18,407 nt of DNA from a virus: UHGV virus genome UHGV-0077132. One strand, written 5' to 3'. A program made the translations under genes and the position numbers. Positions 2,907 to 16,295 of this stretch are shown here, piece by piece. Numbering within the stretch: position 1 is the stretch's first letter; each line of letters starts with the position of its first letter. The notes under the pieces are model-generated. The model was not told the DNA's origin, ran no database searches, and saw only the letters and a list, made by a program, of their open reading frames with translations.

Positions 2907-2909
2907 GTC

Positions 2910-2937
2910 CATAAGAAAGCCCCTCCGGAGAGGGGCT
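2910..2937 (-). terminator. Possible minus-strand terminator hairpin about 350 nt downstream of the lipoprotein gene
   Basis: Perfect 8-bp stem agcccctc / gaggggct with cgga loop (2918-2937); minus strand continues TTCTTAT. Confidence 0.25.
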
Positions 2938-3282
2938 GGAGAGTGGCGCTATGTGCCATTGCATGGTGCCGGGTGCCTCCCGGTGAGTTCAGCCCGGTGA
3001 CACTGAACCCGCGTCATTCTCGTTTTGATAATCAGAGATTATACCATCACCAGTCGCCCCTCCGCTCAGGGGGATTCACCATGCCGTTCTCTTTTAACAA
3101 ATTCGCCGCTAACAGGACAACATTCCGCTTTCTGAGTTGTGAGGAATTTAACACTTCACACCTGTGTGCATTTTCTACAGGCTGATCCCAGCACCACAAT
3201 ACATCGCAGGCAACAGAAGCCAAATGCCCCACCACAGAAAAAACATGCAATTATGATTATTGTTTACTGCAAAGATGTAGAA

Positions 3283-3711
3283 TCACGGTTTAAAATCCAG
3301 CACTCCATTGTGAAATACTTTATATACTTCCGGAGACGGCGGAACTGGTATATCAGCATGCTTCACCGCATTCATCGCTTCACGACATAAATCGGGGTCT
3401 CCACCTTCTCTTTTAACCTGTAGCAGAAGACCATTCGGGGCCATATACATTCTCAGTGAACACTCTTTTCCTGAATACTTACTCGCATCCTTTAACTGTT
3501 CTTCTATGGCTTTCCTGACCTGAATGGCATACTGCCTGATTTCTTCACTGGCATCAGGGGTACGTTCCGATGAGCTCAAATTTTGCGACTTTATTAATTT
3601 ATCTGAGTGATACAGAGAAGCATCATAATTATTTGTCGATACATCTTTTGTGCAGCCAGTTGTCAGACTGGCTAATATCAAAACAAGAACTGGTACAGCA
3701 CGGCAATACAT
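3283..3711 (-). CDS. Secreted lipoprotein with a TolA C-terminal domain (domain III)-like fold, 142 aa; candidate periplasmic TolA-III decoy
   Basis: ATG at 3711 with SD GGAG; signal peptide MYCRAVPVLVLILASLTTGC (lipobox-like, Cys21); Ser/Asp-rich linker; C-terminal ~85 aa align with E. coli TolA domain III as recalled (YSGKECSLRMYMAPNGLLLQVKREGGDPDLC ... IPVPPSPEVYKVFHNGVLDFKP versus TolA YAGKTCTLRIKLAPDGMLLDIKPEGGDPALC ... IPKPPSQAVYEVFKNAPLDFKP); both disulfide cysteines conserved. Confidence 0.8.
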   Translation of the reverse strand: MYCRAVPVLVLILASLTTGCTKDVSTNNYDASLYHSDKLIKSQNLSSSERTPDASEEIRQYAIQVRKAIEEQLKDASKYSGKECSLRMYMAPNGLLLQVKREGGDPDLCREAMNAVKHADIPVPPSPEVYKVFHNGVLDFKP

Positions 3712-3841
3712 TTATCCATCTCCATATTAACAAGAACAATTATCTATAAAATATAGTAAATATGCGGGATCCGGGAGGACTTGTAACTATCATCTCCGGA
3801 TCAGCATGTAGTTTTTATTTTTCCGGATGATATATGCCGCA

Positions 3842-3870
3842 ATAATACCTCTGCATACAGATGCCTGCAA
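3842..3870 (-). promoter_or_regulatory. Candidate sigma70 promoter for the TolA-III-like lipoprotein gene
   Basis: Minus strand: -35 TTGCAG (3870-3865), 17-nt spacer, -10 TATTAT (3847-3842); about 130 nt upstream of the ATG. Confidence 0.3.
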
Positions 3871-3913
3871 ATATCTGCGAAGCATCCGGCGAGAATAAAC
3901 AAGGAAGTCTGAG

Positions 3914-3933
3914 GCTATCTTATATGATAGCCT
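3914..3933. promoter_or_regulatory. Perfect 20-bp palindrome GGCTATC-TTATAT-GATAGCC, candidate dimeric regulator site upstream of the lipoprotein promoter
   Basis: Exact inverted repeat of 7 bp with an AT-rich 6-bp spacer; no adjacent T-run, so not a terminator. Confidence 0.3.
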
Positions 3934-3989
3934 GTTGCTCAAAAGACAATGATTCACTCATCAGAACCAACAACGCATAATGCAGATAA

Positions 3990-4066
3990 TGGACCGCCAT
4001 CGAGGACTCGAACCCCGCGCAGCCAGCTTCGAAGGCTGGCGCTCTATCCCGATGAGCTAATGGCGG
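3990..4066 (-). tRNA. argO: tRNA-Arg (anticodon UCG), phage-borne, argO-like
   Basis: Minus strand folds as a cloverleaf: acceptor CCGCCAT/ATGGCGG, D-arm GCTC..GAGC, anticodon stem CCAGC/GCTGG with loop CTTCGAA, T-loop TTCGAGT, encoded 3' CCA; boundaries +/-1 nt. Confidence 0.7.
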
Positions 4067-4075
4067 TATGTGATA

Positions 4076-4151
4076 TGGTGGCCCTTGCTGGATTTGAACC
4101 AGCGACCTGGCGATTATGAGTCGCTCGCTCTCACCACTGAGCTAAAGGGCC
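4076..4151 (-). tRNA. ileZ: tRNA-Ile2 (anticodon CAU, lysidine type), ileX/ileZ-like
   Basis: Minus strand GGCCCTTTAGCTCAGTGGTGAGAGCGAGCGACTCATAATCGCCAGGTCGCTGGTTCAAATCCAGCAAGGGCCACCA; near-identical architecture to E. coli ileX as recalled; anticodon loop CTCATAA; 3' CCA encoded. Confidence 0.8.
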
Positions 4152-4191: not shown

Positions 4192-4530
4192 TCATCCGTT
4201 CTGACTGACTAAATCCTGAACTTCCCGAACCGTCTGCTCAAAACGTTCAGTCTCCAGCTCAACGCCTGTAGCACGACGGCCCAGTGCCAGTGCAGCTTTA
4301 ACTGTTGAACCTGACCCCATAAAAAAATCTGCAACCAGGTCACCCGGACGACTGCTTGCGCTGATTATCTGCTGCAGCATTTCTGCCGGTTTTTCGCACG
4401 GATGTTTCCCGGGATAGAACTGCACCGGTTTATGCGTCCAGACATCGGTATACGGCACCTGCGCCGTCACGCCAAAATACCGCCGCAGTCGGCATTCACA
4501 ACCACCAGCGCATTTAACGTTCAGGCACAA
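4192..4530 (-). pseudogene. 5'-truncated N6/N4 DNA methyltransferase remnant (C-terminal part only)
   Basis: Contains the AdoMet-binding motif DLVADFFMGSGSTV and the upstream WT..P..F.PGKHPCEKP block of beta-class MTases, but no DPPY catalytic motif and no ATG start (the ORF opens with TTG right after a terminator hairpin). Confidence 0.6.
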
Positions 4531-4885: not shown

Positions 4886-4965
4886 TAAAACTTACATCTT
4901 GAAATAATCACATTGATTAGATGAATATTTATCGCGCAGTGACATCATTTTTTTATAATAGTTCA
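4886..4965 (+). promoter_or_regulatory. Porin promoter region: OmpR-box-like repeats and a -10 TATAAT with a poor -35
   Basis: cTTACATcTTGAAAtaatCACAT (4891-4913) resembles ompC/ompF OmpR boxes; TATAAT at 4954-4959 about 20 nt before the ATG; strongly AT-rich upstream region. Confidence 0.35.
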
Positions 4966-4980
4966 AAAAAAGGGCGTACA

Positions 4981-6063
4981 ATGAAAAAATTAACAGTGGC
5001 AATTTCTGCTGTAGCTGCATCAGTACTGATGGCGATGTCTGCTCAGGCAGCTGAAATTTATAATAAAGACAGTAACAAGCTGGATCTATACGGGAAAGTT
5101 AATGCCAAGCACTACTTCTCCTCTAATGATGCAGATGATGGTGATACTACTTATGCTCGTCTTGGCTTCAAAGGTGAAACCCAAATCAACGATCAACTGA
5201 CTGGTTTCGGTCAGTGGGAATATGACTTCAAAGGCAACCGTGCTGAATCTCAAGGTTCTTCCAAAGACAAAACCCGTCTTGCATTTGCAGGCCTGAAATT
5301 TGGTGATTACGGCTCAATCGATTACGGTCGTAACTACGGTGTAGCATACGACATCGGTGCGTGGACTGACGTTCTGCCAGAATTCGGTGGTGATACCTGG
5401 ACCCAGACAGATGTGTTCATGACTGGCCGCACTACTGGTGTTGCAACTTATCGTAACAACGACTTCTTTGGTCTGGTCGATGGCCTGAACTTTGCTGCTC
5501 AGTATCAGGGTAAAAATGACCGCACTGACGTAACTGAAGCCAATGGTGATGGTTTCGGTTTCTCCACTACTTATGAGTATGAAGGATTCGGCGTGGGTGC
5601 AACCTATGCTAAATCAGATCGCACTGACGGTCAGGTCGCCTATGGTAAGAGCAAATTCAATGCCTCCGGCAAAAATGCGGAAGTATGGGCTGCAGGCCTG
5701 AAATATGATGCGAACAATATCTATCTGGCTACCACATATTCTGAAACTCAGAATATGACCGTTTTTGGTAATAACCATATTGCAAACAAAGCACAAAACT
5801 TTGAAGCAGTAGCACAATATCAGTTTGACTTCGGTCTGCGCCCATCTGTTGCTTACCTTCAGTCAAAAGGTAAAGACCTTGGTGTTCATGGTGACCGAGA
5901 CTTAGTCAAGTATGTCGATGTCGGTGCTACTTACTACTTTAATAAAAACATGTCCACTTTTGTTGATTACAAAATCAACTTAATTGACGATAGTAAGTTT
6001 ACCAAAACAGCTGGTATTGATACCGACGACATCGTCGCTGTAGGTCTGGTTTATCAGTTCTAA
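4981..6063 (+). CDS. nmpC: Outer-membrane general porin of the OmpC/PhoE/NmpC/Lc family (phage-borne porin moron), 360 aa
   Basis: ATG at 4981 (the ORF-track start at 4921 lies upstream of the -10); signal peptide [23 protein letters not shown]; mature N-terminus [16 protein letters not shown] and C-terminus ...VAVGLVYQF typical of enterobacterial porins; same Q-adjacent, opposite-orientation position as nmpC in DLP12 and lc in PA-2. Confidence 0.9.
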
Positions 6064-10120: not shown

Positions 10121-10533
10121 TGTGCAGCTCCCGTGCTGATGAGATAATAATTTTGTGATGTGGTTTTCATGGATTCCCCCTCACATGGCTGGTGGCCTCC
10201 CCAAAGGCTGCCAGCCTCCCTTCTGATTCAGCTCCTCTGAAAAATCACTCTTCCAGGAAGAACCCTTTTCGTTTCTCAACGCCTGAGCGCTTTGTACTAC
10301 CTTGCTGATACGGGCGTTTTTTTAAATTGCGCCCTTAAGACAGTGATCTACTTAACCAATGGATCTCTCCTGTTGGAAAAGACCCTATTCCTGCCCCAAC
10401 ACCCAATCCCCCCTTACCCCCCTTACCCTCTTCCCCATAAAAACGTACTACTTCCCTAGTACACATGAGGAGTTGGGTCAGTTGGTTGCCAACCTGAACA
10501 GGCACCTTTAAGCCTGCTTCTGTTCGGGTACCT

Positions 10534-10972: not shown

Positions 10973-11173
10973 CTAACTATTTGTTTTCCGTAATGGAGAA
11001 AAAATGAGGCTCTCTTTAGATAATTTGAGGGTTGGTGAAACTTTAGATACCGCTTCCTCAATTCTTTCAGCCATTGCAACTGAGGGGCGCCTAAAACCCA
11101 GAGCCATCTGGTTCAGGTATGCAACGCTAGTCCCAGATAACTGTGCCAGCCGCCTCCATTCATCCGCGCTCAT
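10973..11173 (-). CDS. cro: Cro-like HTH regulator, 66 aa
   Basis: ATG at 11173 with strong SD GAGGAG; HTH segment LAQLSGTSVAYLNQMALGFRRPS; divergent from the cI-like gene across an operator-containing spacer. Confidence 0.6.
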   Translation of the reverse strand: MSADEWRRLAQLSGTSVAYLNQMALGFRRPSVAMAERIEEAVSKVSPTLKLSKESLIFSPLRKTNS

Positions 11174-11231
11174 GACTCCTCTGATTGAGAGCAATACACT
11201 GGACATAAAAAACCCCATACTGTATTGGTTA

Positions 11232-11255
11232 TTAGCAACGTGCTAACATTAGCAC
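11232..11255. promoter_or_regulatory. OR-like operator: three alternating half-sites TTAGCA-acg-TGCTAA-ca-TTAGCAC
   Basis: Overlapping palindromes at 11232-11246 and 11240-11255 in the cro/cI intergenic region; a further TTAGCTAA palindrome at 11291-11298. Confidence 0.4.
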
Positions 11256-11311: not shown

Positions 11312-11767
11312 ATGGAAATCAAAGATATTCGCTTAAAAAATCTACAGACGGTAATCCAACGCAGCGGCTTAACCCAGACAGATCTGGCGTTAAAATGTGA
11401 GATATCACCCTCACTTATAAGCCAAATAATGACTAAGCGCAGAAATATGGGAACTGCTCTCGCTAGAAAACTCGAGGGGCGACTGAGCCTATCAGAAGGA
11501 TGGTTTGACATCCCCCACTCATTGCTGGATTCCCCATGGCATCTAGCTAAAATGAGGGAAAAGACTGGTGAGACCACTATTGATGAACAGCAACTAACTA
11601 AAAGAGAGACTCGACTTATTGAGTTATTCAGACAAATGCCTGAAAGCGAAAAAGACAGGATAATCAGTGAGTTATCTGAAAAGAAACGTAATTTTGACAA
11701 ACTACTTGATGAGCTAATGGCTGTTAAAGCATCAAGAATGCCGATCGACAAAGACGAAAATGAATAA
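11312..11767 (+). CDS. cI: cI-like phage repressor (XRE-family HTH, no S24 peptidase domain), 151 aa
   Basis: First ATG at 11312; N-terminal HTH LTQTDLALKCEISPSLISQIMTKRR...LSEGWF; C-terminal ~80 aa helical and charged with no Ala-Gly/Ser-Lys autocleavage motifs; flanked by the same operator motif on both sides. Confidence 0.7.
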   Translation: MEIKDIRLKNLQTVIQRSGLTQTDLALKCEISPSLISQIMTKRRNMGTALARKLEGRLSLSEGWFDIPHSLLDSPWHLAKMREKTGETTIDEQQLTKRETRLIELFRQMPESEKDRIISELSEKKRNFDKLLDELMAVKASRMPIDKDENE

Positions 11768-11801
11768 TAAATACAACGCACTATAAAAAAAACAGCAAAT
11801 A

Positions 11802-11850
11802 TTAGCATTTTGCTATTGTCAAGAATAACGCATAGCGCTACATTCACCTC
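11802..11850 (+). promoter_or_regulatory. OL/pL-like unit: operator TTAGCAtttTGCTAt overlapping the -35 TTGTCA, 17-nt spacer, -10 TACATT
   Basis: Same half-site as the cro/cI operator (11802-11816); -35 at 11816-11821 and -10 at about 11839-11844; followed by a 7-bp inverted repeat cacctca..tgaggtg in the leader. Confidence 0.35.
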
Positions 11851-12538: not shown

Positions 12539-12904
12539 ATGAAAAAGTTCGAAAACATAACTGTTCTCCATGTTGATGACTTTGATTATACAAACCCGGA
12601 ACTTCTCCCGGAGGTTGTAAAGGCAATAGATGTTGCCGATATAGTGATTAGAGAAAAGAGAATTGTCAAAAACAGGCTCGTATGCACTTCAGGAGCAATG
12701 ACAGAAACAACCTCACAGCAAGATAATTACGAAGGCATTTGCCTGGAGCCTGATTCATTTGCGGTAAATGTTTATCATTTATTGCATGCAACACAGGTAT
12801 TACATATGTCCAGTAATCACGAAACGAAAACACTCGGCAGCGAAATTCTGAGTTTTGCATGTGAGTATACAAAAGCTGCTGCCGAAAAAGAATTAGCGCA
12901 ATAA
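12539..12904 (+). CDS. Hypothetical early-left protein, 121 aa
   Basis: ATG with SD GAGGA; no motif recognised. Confidence 0.55.
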   Translation: MKKFENITVLHVDDFDYTNPELLPEVVKAIDVADIVIREKRIVKNRLVCTSGAMTETTSQQDNYEGICLEPDSFAVNVYHLLHATQVLHMSSNHETKTLGSEILSFACEYTKAAAEKELAQ

Positions 12905-12982: not shown

Positions 12983-13096
12983 GTGACTTTTATAAAGAAT
13001 ATGGCATCACACAAGACCGCCTGCCTTATTGCACAATACGGTGAAAATTACATGCATATTGCCTGCTTATTTCTGCGTAAAGCATACGGGAGATAA
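12983..13096 (+). CDS. Possible small ORF, 37 aa, GTG start (VTFIKNMASHKTACLIAQYGENYMHIACLFLRKAYGR)
   Basis: Strong SD AGGAGG 7 nt upstream of the GTG; its stop sits just before the next start codon; below the ORF-track length cutoff. Confidence 0.25.
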   Translation: MTFIKNMASHKTACLIAQYGENYMHIACLFLRKAYGR

Positions 13097-13098
13097 TA

Positions 13099-13317
13099 AT
13101 GCATCAGAAAACAGCAGAACACGAACAAACCAGAATATTGCTGACCATCAAAAACGGGAAAGTAATATTCATTCGCCATGTTCATGACGATGAACTTGTA
13201 GGAACTCTTTCAACATTCCTGTTTATTGCAGAAAAGGCAGGATATGACGTTATTGCACCAGCAGATGAAGATGAAGATGAAGATGAAGATGAAGATGAAG
13301 ATGAAGATGAGGAATAA
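13099..13317 (+). CDS. Small protein with a C-terminal (Asp-Glu)8 acidic tail, 72 aa
   Basis: ATG with SD GGGAGA; C-terminus ...APADEDEDEDEDEDEDEDEE encoded by a GATGAA hexamer repeat. Confidence 0.55.
   Translation: MHQKTAEHEQTRILLTIKNGKVIFIRHVHDDELVGTLSTFLFIAEKAGYDVIAPADEDEDEDEDEDEDEDEE
13264..13311 (+). repeat. Hexanucleotide microsatellite (GATGAA)x7 plus GATGAG, in frame within the CDS 13099-13317
   Basis: Read directly from the sequence; the opposite strand gives the spurious poly-Ser ORF 13182-13397. Confidence 0.95.
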
Positions 13318-13322
13318 ATATC

Positions 13323-13904
13323 ATGCAATACGATGAATTCCAGGCTGAAGCAACAGCCAATGGTATACGAACTGGCAGTATGACGATTGATTATCACGAC
13401 GCCATACGTCGTCTGGATGCCGGAGAATTCGATACTCCTAATGTGCGAGGTTTACGTATCCTTCAGTGTCTGGCGCAAGCCGACGAAGCAGGATTACTGG
13501 GTAAACTTCCGGTTGAGATGAAGGTTGCTCAGTGGCGATGGTTGTATGTGACGACATTCATCAACGAAGAAGAAGACAAGAACGGCACAATTGATATCCT
13601 GAATGAACACGGAACAACTGAACACGCCGTGGTATATAACGGGATGTATGGGTTTATGACGATATATCCCGGCCCCATTCGATTTGCCTTACAACAGTAT
13701 ATTGAATGGAATTTAATTCAAAAATACGGCGAAGCTGAAGGAATGGGAAGAGCGCTGTTTCTTTATCAGAAAATGCTCACTACTTCCCCTGATAAAGGTT
13801 TCATTCTTTCAGATATGGGTCGAGAAGGGCTTGAAATCCTTCTGGATGAAATTATTAACGAAATGAATACTCATGGCATGCAATCCGAAACAGATATTAA
13901 GTAA
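13323..13904 (+). CDS. Hypothetical early-left protein, 193 aa
   Basis: ATG 5 nt after the upstream stop with SD GAGGAA; no motif recognised. Confidence 0.6.
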   Translation: MQYDEFQAEATANGIRTGSMTIDYHDAIRRLDAGEFDTPNVRGLRILQCLAQADEAGLLGKLPVEMKVAQWRWLYVTTFINEEEDKNGTIDILNEHGTTEHAVVYNGMYGFMTIYPGPIRFALQQYIEWNLIQKYGEAEGMGRALFLYQKMLTTSPDKGFILSDMGREGLEILLDEIINEMNTHGMQSETDIK

Positions 13905-13914
13905 AAGGGACCAC

Positions 13915-14163
13915 ATGACCGTTATCGAGTATATCCAGGAAAATCCAGATTGCAGTAGAGAAGATATATCCCTCGCACTTGGAAGAAGCGCAACTTCTAT
14001 CAGTAATGAATTATCACGGTTATTGTGGAATGGGTTAATAGTACGAACTGGAGAAAAAATCAAAATGATTCTGTACTGCGTAAACAATCTGCCGTTTGGA
14101 TACAGCAATCCCCTAAGTGTTATGTTCAACCAGTTACTTAAACAGGTAAGAAATGGCAACTGA
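13915..14163 (+). CDS. Small winged-helix-like DNA-binding protein, 82 aa
   Basis: First ATG at 13915; segment SREDISLALGRSATSISNELSRLLWNGLIVR resembles a wHTH recognition unit. Confidence 0.45.
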   Translation: MTVIEYIQENPDCSREDISLALGRSATSISNELSRLLWNGLIVRTGEKIKMILYCVNNLPFGYSNPLSVMFNQLLKQVRNGN

Positions 14164-15262: not shown

Positions 15263-15526
15263 ATGGCAACTTTGACAAAAAAAGAACAAGCATGGTTGAG
15301 CGAATTACAGGACGTTCTTGATCGCTGCCCATCACCGAAAAAAATTGGTTTTTACACCATTGGCGATAAAAGCATTTACCTGTATGACCTGCGCCGCATG
15401 GATGAAATCATGGAGGCTCTTGATAATCGTTCGTCAATGGATTGGTGTGTTGCTGTTCATGATATGAATGCCGGATTTGATGAAAAGATTTTATTCCCCT
15501 CATCAGTTGAAAGTACAGCAGGATAA
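15263..15526 (+). CDS. Hypothetical early-left protein, 87 aa
   Basis: ATG 2 nt after the upstream stop with SD AAGGAG. Confidence 0.5.
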   Translation: MATLTKKEQAWLSELQDVLDRCPSPKKIGFYTIGDKSIYLYDLRRMDEIMEALDNRSSMDWCVAVHDMNAGFDEKILFPSSVESTAG

Positions 15527-15536
15527 GGACTAACAC

Positions 15537-16295
15537 ATGACCACTATTACCAAAGAGCGACTGCTGACAATCAGGCAGTGGCGCGAAACATACGGACCTG
15601 GTAGCAACGTTGTACTGCCAGCAGAAGAAGCGGAAGAACTGGCACGAATTGCACTGGTATCGCTGGAAGCAGAGCCGGTGGCAAAGATTATAGCTCATTA
15701 CCCATTAGGAGTTGACGTAGGCAAACAAAAGTTCGTACAGGCCATTGGAGAGCTTCCTGACTTTGGCGGATATCTATTTGCCGCCCCGCCAGCGCCGGTA
15801 GTGCCGGAAGAAGCAACTCCGGAAAACGTAGAAATGCTCTCTGGCTATGTTTCCACGTACAAATTAACCGATAGCGAGCGCGATATTGCTGCCGAAATAT
15901 GGAACGCCTGCCGCACCGCCATGCTTCAGTCCGGAAACTTTCGGGAAAGCAAGAATTCGTCAACCAATAATTTTCGGGAAATCCCGGAAGCGTCAACCAG
16001 CTCTCCGGTAACTCCGGCTCTTCTGCCTGGTGGTTTCACCATTGAGGAGGCGAAGGAATTACATGAAGACCTGGTACGCAGCCACATAAGCAAGGCCTTA
16101 AGTGGCGAAAAGATGAAAAAGAAAGATCGCGATGCTGATTTGCGCTGGATTCATGGCGTTATAGTTCAGGCAGCGTGGTTTGTAAAAGCATCACTGGAGC
16201 AGAATGCACTATCGGGCAACTCTCCGGTAACTCCGGATGGTTGGATAAGCTGTAGTGAGCGAATGCCGGACGACAGGCAGGAGGTGAATCAATGA
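15537..16295 (+). CDS. Early-left protein with a DUF551-like C-terminus, 252 aa
   Basis: SD AAGGA; internal near-repeat (NSPVTP/SSPVTP); C-terminal WISCSERMPDD resembles the DUF551 signature of lambdoid early proteins. Confidence 0.55.
   Translation: MTTITKERLLTIRQWRETYGPGSNVVLPAEEAEELARIALVSLEAEPVAKIIAHYPLGVDVGKQKFVQAIGELPDFGGYLFAAPPAPVVPEEATPENVEMLSGYVSTYKLTDSERDIAAEIWNACRTAMLQSGNFRESKNSSTNNFREIPEASTSSPVTPALLPGGFTIEEAKELHEDLVRSHISKALSGEKMKKKDRDADLRWIHGVIVQAAWFVKASLEQNALSGNSPVTPDGWISCSERMPDDRQEVNQ

What the first reader, a model, noticed from the sequence alone, without database searches (positions are those of the whole stretch)
13099..13317. Small protein with a (Asp-Glu)8 tail encoded by a GATGAA microsatellite
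A 72-aa protein ends in an uninterrupted DEDEDEDEDEDEDEDEE tail encoded by eight hexamer repeats (13264-13311). Strongly acidic tails are typical of DNA mimics and anti-restriction or anti-defence proteins, and the repeat is an in-frame slipped-strand locus that can change tail length. It is tightly linked (5-bp gap) to the unknown 193-aa gene downstream.
Basis: partly seen in the sequence, partly recalled or inferred. Interest (0 to 1): 0.6.

Follow-up and report, generated by a model that had tools for sequence, protein, structure and literature searches.

The report
Variable acidic tail on prophage protein
A small early gene of an E. coli lambdoid prophage ends in a GATGAA repeat that really does vary from 2 to 9 copies between near-identical prophages, but the long Asp-Glu tail is a rare, recent slippage product on a disordered end, and nothing supports a DNA-mimic or anti-restriction role.

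Summary
ORF 13099-13317 (+) encodes 72 aa ending in (DE)8E, from a perfect period-6 repeat (13264-13311), with a 5-nt gap to the 193-aa gene. The repeat is a true VNTR. Near-identical E. coli prophages carry every allele from 2 to 9 units, with flanks differing at only 2 SNPs. The 2-unit tail (PADEDEE) is commonest and is the only state in diverged relatives and Stx phages; frequency falls with length.

The protein belongs to uncharacterised PHROG 340 (phiP27 L07). It has no Pfam, NCBIfam, PADLOC or PDB relative. Its conserved part is a roughly 45-aa hairpin-helix core, which also forms the C-terminal domain of Rha and Bro-N "antirepressor-like" phage regulators. The core is nearly neutral (net -1). 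The sister clade ends ...PPAKEQTL, and no other family representative has a D/E run longer than 4. Strong acidity is therefore a lineage-specific accident, not a family trait.

The gene is third in the inferred early-left (pL-like) operon. In Escherichia phages it is translationally coupled to the 193-aa gene, whose Shine-Dalgarno lies in the last repeat unit.

Slippage is supported; the DNA-mimic/anti-restriction reading is unsupported but not excluded. Biochemical function remains unknown. Interest is low to moderate.

The parts
13088..13092 (+). Shine-Dalgarno (GGGAG) of the 72-aa gene, 6 nt before its ATG
   Evidence: Read from the sequence.
13099..13317 (+). CDS of the 72-aa protein (PHROG 340 / phiP27 L07 family), stop codon included
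   Evidence: phrog_340 match E 1.8e-23 over residues 2-67. Annotated as a CDS in RefSeq relatives.
13126..13263 (+). Conserved core domain (about residues 10-55): beta-hairpin, helix, then AGY-x-V/I-x-P-P. It is shared with the C-terminus of Rha/Bro-N regulators.
   Evidence: AF2 strands 12-18 and 21-28, helix 37-46, pLDDT about 90. Family alignments. Rha/Bro-N fusions.
13264..13311 (+). In-frame hexanucleotide VNTR: (GATGAA)x7 + GATGAG, encoding (DE)8. It is followed by GAA (E) and TAA.
   Evidence: TRF. Alleles n=2-9 in near-identical prophages. The tail has pLDDT 57-58, i.e. it is predicted disordered.
13309..13313 (+). GAGGA, the Shine-Dalgarno of the downstream 193-aa gene. It is formed by the last, imperfect repeat unit plus the final Glu codon, and lies 9 nt before ATG 13323.
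   Evidence: Sequence. This 3' end is invariant in all eight alleles aligned.
13323..13904 (+). 193-aa gene (PHROG 1515 / phiP27 L06), translationally coupled to the 72-aa gene. Confident predicted fold with no solved analogue.
12539..12904 (+). Upstream gene of the module (phiP27 L08 / PHROG 5451). RefSeq calls only the shorter 12698-12904 version (68 aa).
   Evidence: phrog_5451 E 5e-83 over 1-121/121. RefSeq annotation. It is 95% identical to phiP27 L08, whereas L07 is 49% and L06 65% identical.
11795..11844 (+). Operator-like repeat (11795-11815, related to 11230-11254) followed by a promoter-like site (TTGTCA-17-TACATT). This is the inferred pL of the early-left operon that contains the gene.
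   Evidence: Inference only; no transcript data.

Best explanation
The gene encodes a small early-left-operon accessory protein of a lambdoid E. coli prophage (PHROG 340, the phiP27 L07 family).

Its functional part is a roughly 45-residue beta-hairpin/helix module. The same module is the C-terminal domain of Rha- and Bro-N-type phage regulators and is sometimes tandemly duplicated. It most likely works as a protein-protein interaction or dimerisation module. In Escherichia phages it probably acts together with the translationally coupled 193-aa L06 protein.

The C-terminal tail is intrinsically disordered. In this clade the long-term tail is PADEDEE. Its coding sequence, GATGAA-GATGAG, seeded a hexanucleotide microsatellite that grows and shrinks by replication slippage, always in frame. 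The 3' edge is fixed, because the last unit supplies the Shine-Dalgarno of L06. The (DE)8 allele in this window is a rare, recently expanded state that the disordered tail tolerates. It is not a designed DNA mimic.

Shown: the ORF, the repeat, the allelic series, family membership, the shared domain, the lack of acidity in relatives, and the synteny. Inferred: early-operon expression, the protein-binding role, and near-neutrality of tail length.
For: Repeat and ORF.

Allelic series: alleles n=9, 8, 7, 6, 5, 4, 3 and 2 align with flanks identical except for 2 SNPs. In 5,426 complete E. coli genomes the counts are n9 x1, n8 x0, n7 x1, n6 x4, n5 x12, n4 x3. My estimate for n3 is about 40, and n2 is the majority. 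Contig counts in the 15-billion-protein collection are: 60 aa at least 1000, 62 aa at least 1000, 64 aa 265, 66 aa 84.

Expansions sit on several point-variant backgrounds (I13/V13, K46/R46, F33, N36, I21), so they are recurrent. All units are the identical codon pair GAT-GAA with no synonymous variation, which points to recent origin. All 20 Stx-phage and related copies, and all diverged Escherichia copies, have n=2; PhiR49_2 has n=3.

Family: phrog_340 E 1.8e-23. The exhaustive profile search found 76 representative clusters. Most are standalone proteins of 60-85 aa; seven are C-terminal fusions to PF09669 Rha or PF02498 Bro-N, and there are tandem duplications. The core aligns without gaps across standalone and fused forms.

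Structure: the AF2 core has pLDDT about 90 and the tail 57-58.

Charge: core -1, tail -17. The family median net charge is -2 (range -10 to +6) and the longest D/E run in representatives is 4 or less.

Operon position: a Cro-like ORF and OR-like repeat, a CI-like HTH, then an OL-like repeat plus promoter-like site upstream of HTH179-L08-L07-L06...xis-int.

L07-L06 coupling: a 5-nt gap here and an ATGA overlap in ASU11 and L017. L07 and L06 co-diverge (49% and 65%) next to a 95%-identical L08.
Against: No biochemical function is demonstrated for any member of the family, so the protein-binding role is an inference from domain architecture only.

The fold search gave no analogue.

Neutrality of tail length is inferred from the decaying allele spectrum and repeat purity. 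It has not been tested with a phylogeny-aware model. An 8- or 9-unit tail of -17 to -19 charge could well have a phenotype.

L07 homologues in Citrobacter, Enterobacter, Trabulsiella and Pseudocitrobacter prophages lack L06, so the L06 partnership cannot be the universal function.

The pL assignment rests on consensus matches whose number does not exceed chance expectation.
Confidence: 0.6

Rival explanations
1. One reading: the poly-(Asp-Glu) tail is a polyanionic DNA mimic. It would let this early protein block type I restriction enzymes or other DNA-binding defence or host proteins. The repeat would be a contingency locus that tunes potency.
For: The tail carries 17 consecutive acidic residues, net -17. 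The gene lies early in the inferred pL-type operon, where lambdoid phages keep host-takeover and anti-defence genes such as ral and gam (established knowledge; operon layout). Copy number is hypervariable.
Against: There is no homology to any anti-restriction, anti-defence or DNA-mimic family. The folded core is nearly neutral, whereas known mimics (Ocr, ArdA) display charge on a rigid folded surface (established knowledge; PMC2731889, PMC3439906 titles and abstracts). The dominant and ancestral allele has only DEDEE. The sister clade has KEQTL and net charge 0. Long alleles are rare and built of identical codons, so they are not maintained over time.
Confidence: 0.1
2. L07 and L06 form a two-protein functional unit in which L07 is the small adaptor, inhibitor or chaperone of the 193-aa protein. 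The acidic tail contacts L06 or its target, so repeat length modulates that complex.
For: In every Escherichia locus examined L07 sits immediately upstream of L06, with a 5-nt gap or an ATGA overlap. This holds even for the most divergent L06 (52-54% identity). The two genes co-diverge as a unit beside a 95%-conserved L08. L06 folds confidently (pLDDT 88).
Against: L07 occurs without L06 in other genera. The same domain is fused to Rha/Bro-N proteins unrelated to L06. KEQTL-tailed L07 proteins pair with L06 equally well, so an acidic tail is not needed. No complex prediction could be run.
Confidence: 0.2
3. The repeat acts at the level of translation. A long run of acidic residues in the nascent chain destabilises the ribosome (intrinsic ribosome destabilisation). 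Together with the purine-rich tract just upstream of the L06 Shine-Dalgarno, this would make repeat number a rheostat for L07 yield and for termination-reinitiation on L06.
For: Consecutive D/E residues cause stochastic translation abortion in E. coli (bioRxiv 10.1101/2021.02.02.429294, read; PMC9718836 abstract). The L06 Shine-Dalgarno (GAGGA, 13309-13313) is part of the last repeat unit, and the stop and start codons are 5 nt apart. The repeat RNA is predicted to be unstructured.
Against: The same paper reports that such sequences stay cryptic when about 30 or more residues already fill the exit tunnel. Here 55 residues precede the run. The RNA fold around the junction is no more stable than shuffled sequences (z -0.56). 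No expression data exist.
Confidence: 0.07

Closest known systems
PHROG 340 / phiP27 L07 (NP_543059) and its E. coli prophage and Stx-phage homologues, all annotated 'hypothetical protein'
   Same: HMM match E 1.8e-23. 49-56% identity to phiP27 and ASU11 L07 over the core. Same L08-L07-L06 order between the immunity region and xis-int.
   Different: phiP27-type proteins end in PPAKEQTL with net charge 0. The window's clade ends in PADEDEE, and only one sub-lineage has expanded that to (DE)3-9.
C-terminal domain of Rha-family (PF09669) and Bro-N (PF02498) phage regulators, annotated 'anti-repressor' in PHROGs 4792 and 2379
   Same: The roughly 45-residue hairpin-helix core aligns without gaps. 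Whole-library E-values are 1e-8 to 4e-4 for seven fusion proteins. PHROG hits are at 7e-6 and 8e-4.
   Different: The 72-aa protein has no Rha or Bro-N DNA-binding domain. The fused forms continue with a short H-x-D-D-L helix rather than a P-P-A plus polar tail. No antirepressor activity has been shown for this domain.
DNA-mimic anti-restriction proteins (T7 Ocr, ArdA)
   Same: Small, very acidic overall (net -18, pI 4.2), encoded by a mobile element and probably expressed early.
   Different: No sequence or fold similarity. The charge sits in a disordered homopolymer-like tail rather than on a rigid DNA-shaped surface. Acidity is not conserved in the family.
In-frame coding VNTRs / simple-sequence contingency loci of bacteria (including the hexanucleotide MLVA loci used for E. 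coli typing)
   Same: A perfect short tandem repeat inside a gene, with stepwise copy-number alleles among near-clonal genomes.
   Different: The 6-nt unit never shifts the frame, so there is no ON/OFF switching. I did not find this locus in any typing scheme (one search was uninformative).
Acidic C-terminal tails of SSB, T7 gp2.5 and HMGB1 (recalled from general knowledge, not tested)
   Same: A disordered, strongly acidic C-terminus appended to a small folded domain.
   Different: Those tails are conserved. In SSB and gp2.5 they end in a hydrophobic or aromatic tip that docks on partners. Here the tail ends ...DEE, is not conserved, and the core shows no DNA-binding domain signature.

Membership tests
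PHROG 340 (phiP27 L07-like small prophage proteins) | Significant full-length match to the family profile | tested here: met
   phrog_340 E 1.8e-23, residues 2-67 on profile positions 17-82 of 85. Reciprocal family alignment A1.
PHROG 340 (phiP27 L07-like small prophage proteins) | Location in the early-left region between the immunity genes and xis/int | tested here: met
   Window, phiP27, ASU11, two further E. coli contigs and six non-Escherichia prophages.
Rha / Bro-N 'antirepressor-like' regulators | N-terminal Rha (PF09669) or Bro-N (PF02498) domain | tested here: not met
   No Pfam hit in the 72-aa protein. Only the C-terminal module is shared.
Rha / Bro-N 'antirepressor-like' regulators | Shared C-terminal roughly 45-aa hairpin-helix module | tested here: met
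   Profile hits to P0078, P0097, P0098, P0102, P0103, P0117 and P0118. Gapless alignment.
DNA-mimic anti-restriction proteins (Ocr / ArdA type) | Sequence or structural homology to a known mimic or anti-defence family | tested here: not met
   [not shown]
DNA-mimic anti-restriction proteins (Ocr / ArdA type) | Folded domain with a strongly negative surface | tested here: not met
   Core residues 1-55 have net charge -1 and pI 6.4. All excess charge lies in the low-confidence tail.
DNA-mimic anti-restriction proteins (Ocr / ArdA type) | Acidity conserved among homologues | tested here: not met
   The sister clade has net charge 0. For 55 standalone representatives the median is -2, the range -10 to +6, and the longest D/E run 4 or less.
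DNA-mimic anti-restriction proteins (Ocr / ArdA type) | Relief of restriction, or binding to a DNA-binding enzyme | not testable with these tools
   Needs plating or transformation assays and pull-downs.
Slipped-strand simple-sequence (VNTR / contingency) locus | Perfect short tandem repeat with copy-number alleles among near-identical genomes | tested here: met
   TRF 8.0 copies at 100%. Alleles n=2-9 with only 2 flank SNPs.
Slipped-strand simple-sequence (VNTR / contingency) locus | Reversible ON/OFF switching by frameshift | tested here: not met
   The unit is 6 nt, and every allele keeps the frame and the same stop codon.
Slipped-strand simple-sequence (VNTR / contingency) locus | Phenotypic consequence of repeat number | not testable with these tools
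   No expression or phenotype data are available.
Intrinsic-ribosome-destabilisation (IRD) sequences | Run of consecutive D/E residues in the nascent chain | tested here: met
   17 consecutive D/E residues. Criterion taken from the paper read.
Intrinsic-ribosome-destabilisation (IRD) sequences | Position near the N-terminus, with the exit tunnel not yet filled (fewer than about 30 preceding residues) | tested here: not met
   55 residues precede the run. The paper reports that mid-ORF sequences remain cryptic.

The most novel reading that the evidence does not exclude
The expandable (Asp-Glu)n tail is a tunable polyanionic decoy on an early phage protein. Under this reading it is a phage-borne in-frame contingency locus, and its length variants change how strongly the protein (alone or with L06) titrates a host or rival-phage nucleic-acid-binding factor such as a restriction or defence enzyme. 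Recurrent expansions in the ST131-associated prophage would then reflect selection rather than drift.
Probability: 0.08. Interest if true: 0.65.

Novelty: new member of a known kind. Interest (0 to 1): 0.27.

Why it matters
As it stands, this is a clean example of a coding microsatellite being born and drifting in the disordered tail of an uncharacterised prophage protein. It has three modest uses.

1. It is a fast-evolving length marker (n=2-9) in a prophage common in ST131-type E. coli.
2. It shows that a strikingly acidic tail is not by itself evidence of DNA mimicry.
3. It flags an uncurated small domain, absent from Pfam and the PDB. The domain is widespread in the early-left operons of Enterobacteriaceae prophages and shared with Rha/Bro-N regulators, and its function is worth finding.

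If tail length did turn out to change a host-interaction phenotype, it would be an unusual in-frame contingency locus in a phage.

Tried and rejected
**Family and structure searches**
- Pfam, NCBIfam and PADLOC scans of the protein and its neighbours gave nothing for L07, L06 or L08. Pfam on 51 family members was also negative.
- PDB sequence searches with two family profiles gave only a chance 22-residue hairpin match to DegV proteins, E about 0.02.

**Sequence features**
- LexA-box search, to test for an SOS-controlled antirepressor: no site near the gene, and fewer matches than chance.
- Search for a second L07-like domain, i.e. a possible Rha/Bro partner, in the window and related loci: none in the window.
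- Antisense ORF 13182-13397, which would read the repeat as poly-Ser: not annotated anywhere and no family support. I regard it as an artefact of the repeat.
- RNA structure around the repeat and L06 start: not different from shuffles.
- Rfam: nothing at the locus.

**Literature**
- No paper mentions phiP27 L07 or peptide words from the family. The protein is absent from the supplements of one accessory-gene screen.
- The MLVA search was uninformative.

Full report
**Observation**

The window is a lambdoid prophage of E. coli. It runs from the lysis and late-regulation genes through the replication and immunity regions to xis and int, next to mlrA. A 2-kb query around the finding matches 766 of 5,426 complete E. 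coli genomes, including many O25b:H4-ST131 strains, at 99.7% identity.

The ORF at 13099-13317 (+) is real and translates to 72 aa ending in ADEDEDEDEDEDEDEDEE. Tandem Repeats Finder reports a period-6 array of 8.0 copies at 100% identity (13263-13310). In frame this is (GATGAA)x7 + GATGAG at 13264-13311, followed by GAA and TAA. About 2e-21 such tracts would be expected by chance in this window.

A GGGAG Shine-Dalgarno precedes the ATG by 6 nt. The 193-aa ORF starts 5 nt after the stop codon.

**Is the repeat variable?**

Yes. A 361-nt query spanning the gene returns spans of 367, 355, 349, 343, 337, 331 and 325 nt in complete E. coli genomes.

I fetched one example of each and aligned them with the window. 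The result is a perfect allelic series of 9, 8, 7, 6, 5, 4, 3 and 2 units. The only other differences are two SNPs in 319 flanking positions, and the 3' end (GATGAGGAATAAATATCATG) is invariant.

Counts in the complete-genome set are:

| Units | Records |
|---|---|
| 9 | 1 |
| 8 | 0 |
| 7 | 1 |
| 6 | 4 |
| 5 | 12 |
| 4 | 3 |
| 3 | roughly 40 (my estimate from the identity bands) |
| 2 | the majority |

In the 15-billion-protein collection the alleles were seen on these numbers of contigs: 60 aa (n=2) at least 1000, 62 aa (n=3) at least 1000, 64 aa (n=4) 265, and 66 aa (n=5) 84. The window's exact 72-aa sequence is absent. An interrupted 72-aa variant (…DEDEDEYEDEDEDEE) is present.

Expanded alleles occur on several point-variant backgrounds, so expansion has happened repeatedly. 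All Stx-phage copies and all more diverged Escherichia copies (80-89% identity) have n=2, that is PADEDEE. PhiR49_2 has n=3. All units use the same codon pair, with no synonymous variation.

Taken together, DEDEE is the long-term state. The microsatellite was born from GATGAA-GATGAG in one prophage lineage, and long alleles are young and rare.

**What is the protein?**

It matches PHROG 340 (unknown function) at E 1.8e-23. It has no Pfam, NCBIfam or PADLOC family.

Word-based searches found only Escherichia relatives, in two clades. One is the DEDEE clade. The other is the phiP27 L07 clade, which is 45-50% identical and ends in PPAKEQTL.

An exhaustive profile search of 1.84 billion representatives found 76 clusters. 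Most are standalone proteins of 60-85 aa. Their C-terminal tails are short, polar and varied, and none carries a DE repeat.

Seven clusters carry the domain at the C-terminus of proteins whose N-terminus is a Rha (PF09669) or Bro-N (PF02498) domain. Several others are tandem duplications of the domain. The roughly 45-residue core aligns without gaps between standalone and fused forms. This explains the weaker PHROG hits to the C-terminal part of 'anti-repressor' families 4792 and 2379.

AlphaFold2 predicts a beta-hairpin (12-18, 21-28) and a helix (37-46) at pLDDT about 90, with a low-confidence tail at 57-58. No solved or predicted viral structure resembles it. None of 51 family members hits a Pfam model.

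The core has net charge -1 and the tail -17. Across 55 standalone representatives the median net charge is -2 (range -10 to +6), and the longest D/E run is 4. Strong acidity is therefore not a property of the family.

**Context**

On the minus strand lie a Cro-like ORF (10973-11218), the helicase/toprim replication genes and QuuD. On the plus strand lie:
- a CI-like HTH gene (11312-11767);
- an operator-like repeat (11795-11815, related to 11230-11254) followed by a promoter-like site (11816-11844);
- then HTH179 (a 'CII-like regulator' PHROG), L08, L07 (this gene), L06, a small winged-helix gene, DUF4752, an Ea22-like gene, xis and int.

I infer that L07 is the third gene of the early-left (pL-type) operon, repressed in the lysogen and expressed early. 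This rests on consensus matches only.

The L08-L07-L06 order recurs in phiP27, ASU11, Stx phages and other E. coli prophages. L07 and L06 are always adjacent there, with a 5-nt gap or an ATGA overlap. They co-diverge (49% and 65% identity to phiP27) next to a 95%-identical L08. This suggests they are exchanged, and perhaps function, as a pair.

In Citrobacter, Enterobacter, Trabulsiella and Pseudocitrobacter prophages, however, an L07 homologue sits in the same early-left region without L06 or L08.

L06 itself folds confidently (pLDDT 88) but has no informative structural neighbour.

The Shine-Dalgarno of L06 (GAGGA, 13309-13313) is built from the last, imperfect repeat unit and the final Glu codon. 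This explains why the 3' end of the array is fixed while units are gained and lost upstream.

**How it most likely works**

The repeat behaves as a classic slipped-strand VNTR. Because its unit is 6 nt, it can only lengthen or shorten a disordered acidic tail and cannot switch the gene off.

The conserved core also serves as the C-terminal module of DNA-binding Rha/Bro-N regulators, and it is found tandemly duplicated. It is therefore most plausibly a dimerisation or protein-binding module. In Escherichia phages it probably acts with L06.

The decaying allele spectrum, repeat purity, and the absence of long tails in older lineages all argue that tail length is close to neutral. I put about 0.6 on this overall picture. 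The biochemical activity of the core remains unknown.

**Rivals**

*DNA mimic / anti-restriction (about 0.1).* The extreme charge and the early-operon position speak for it. Against it are the lack of any homology, the neutral core, and the non-conservation of acidity. Known mimics present charge on rigid surfaces.

*L07-L06 complex modulated by the tail (about 0.2).* Strict synteny, translational coupling and co-divergence support it. KEQTL-tailed L07 proteins pair with L06 too, and L07 exists without L06.

*Translational rheostat through ribosome destabilisation by acidic nascent chains (about 0.07).* It is mechanistically possible. The source paper reports that such runs are cryptic once about 30 residues fill the tunnel, and here 55 precede the run. 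The junction RNA shows no special structure.

**Comparison with what is known, and novelty**

The protein is a member of an already catalogued but uncharacterised phage family (PHROG 340 / phiP27 L07). The repeat is a new instance of a known kind of feature, an in-frame coding VNTR. I found no literature on this protein or locus.

It fails the tested defining features of DNA-mimic anti-restriction proteins. It also lacks the DNA-binding domain that defines Rha/Bro-N regulators, sharing only their C-terminal module.

**Verdict**

The DNA-mimic/anti-defence part is unsupported, though not excluded.

Interest is low to moderate (0.27). This is a tidy, fast-evolving length polymorphism on an unknown early prophage protein, not a surprising new system.

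Noticed in passing
window 13873-14163 (+), probable start ATG 13916: An ORF encoding a small winged-helix (MarR-like) protein: phrog_1687 E 3.8e-24, with weak MarR_2 and HTH_24 Pfam hits. It lies in a stretch that RefSeq leaves unannotated in the near-identical prophage (L001 gap 15411-15660), so it is probably a missed gene.
   Followed up: partly
window 12539-12904 (+): The upstream gene L08 matches PHROG 5451 over all 121 residues (E 5e-83), but RefSeq annotates only the C-terminal 68 aa (12698-12904). The start site is ambiguous. It is 95% identical to phiP27 L08, while the adjacent L07 and L06 are only 49% and 65% identical, so there is a sharp mosaic boundary.
   Followed up: partly
[not shown]
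   Followed up: partly
window 2907-3113 (-): Full-length match to the Rfam sRNA family STnc100 (162 bits, E 4e-37). It lies in the late region, between the SASA-family esterase gene and a TolA-like gene.
   Followed up: no
window 3283-4151 (-): tRNA-Arg and tRNA-Ile genes (3993-4151) lie downstream of the Q antiterminator region, as in Stx phages. The cargo position that follows holds a 142-aa gene annotated 'TolA' rather than a toxin. A truncated DNA methyltransferase pseudogene lies next to the tRNAs (4192-4488).
   Followed up: no
window 4921-6063 (+): A phage-borne OmpC-type porin gene (annotated ompC in the near-identical RefSeq prophage) sits between the tRNA region and quuD.
   Followed up: no
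window 11230-11254 and 11795-11815: Two related TATTAGCA-N-TGCTA operator-like sequences flank the CI-like gene. The second is immediately followed by a promoter-like site (11816-11844). They look like OR and OL/pL. Both HTH proteins lack a Peptidase_S24 domain, and no LexA box was found in the window, so the induction mechanism is unclear.
   Followed up: partly
window 10408-10428: A short perfect tandem repeat, CCCCCCTTA x2.3, in the intergenic region downstream of the helicase gene.
   Followed up: no
L009 4700-5192 (Enterobacter soli prophage): Two adjacent L07-like segments in different frames (E 8e-9 and 2e-23). This is either a tandem duplication or a frameshifted copy.
   Followed up: no
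window 13182-13397 (-): An antisense 71-aa ORF reads the repeat as a 16-residue poly-Ser run. It has no annotation or family support and is probably a by-product of the repeat.
   Followed up: partly
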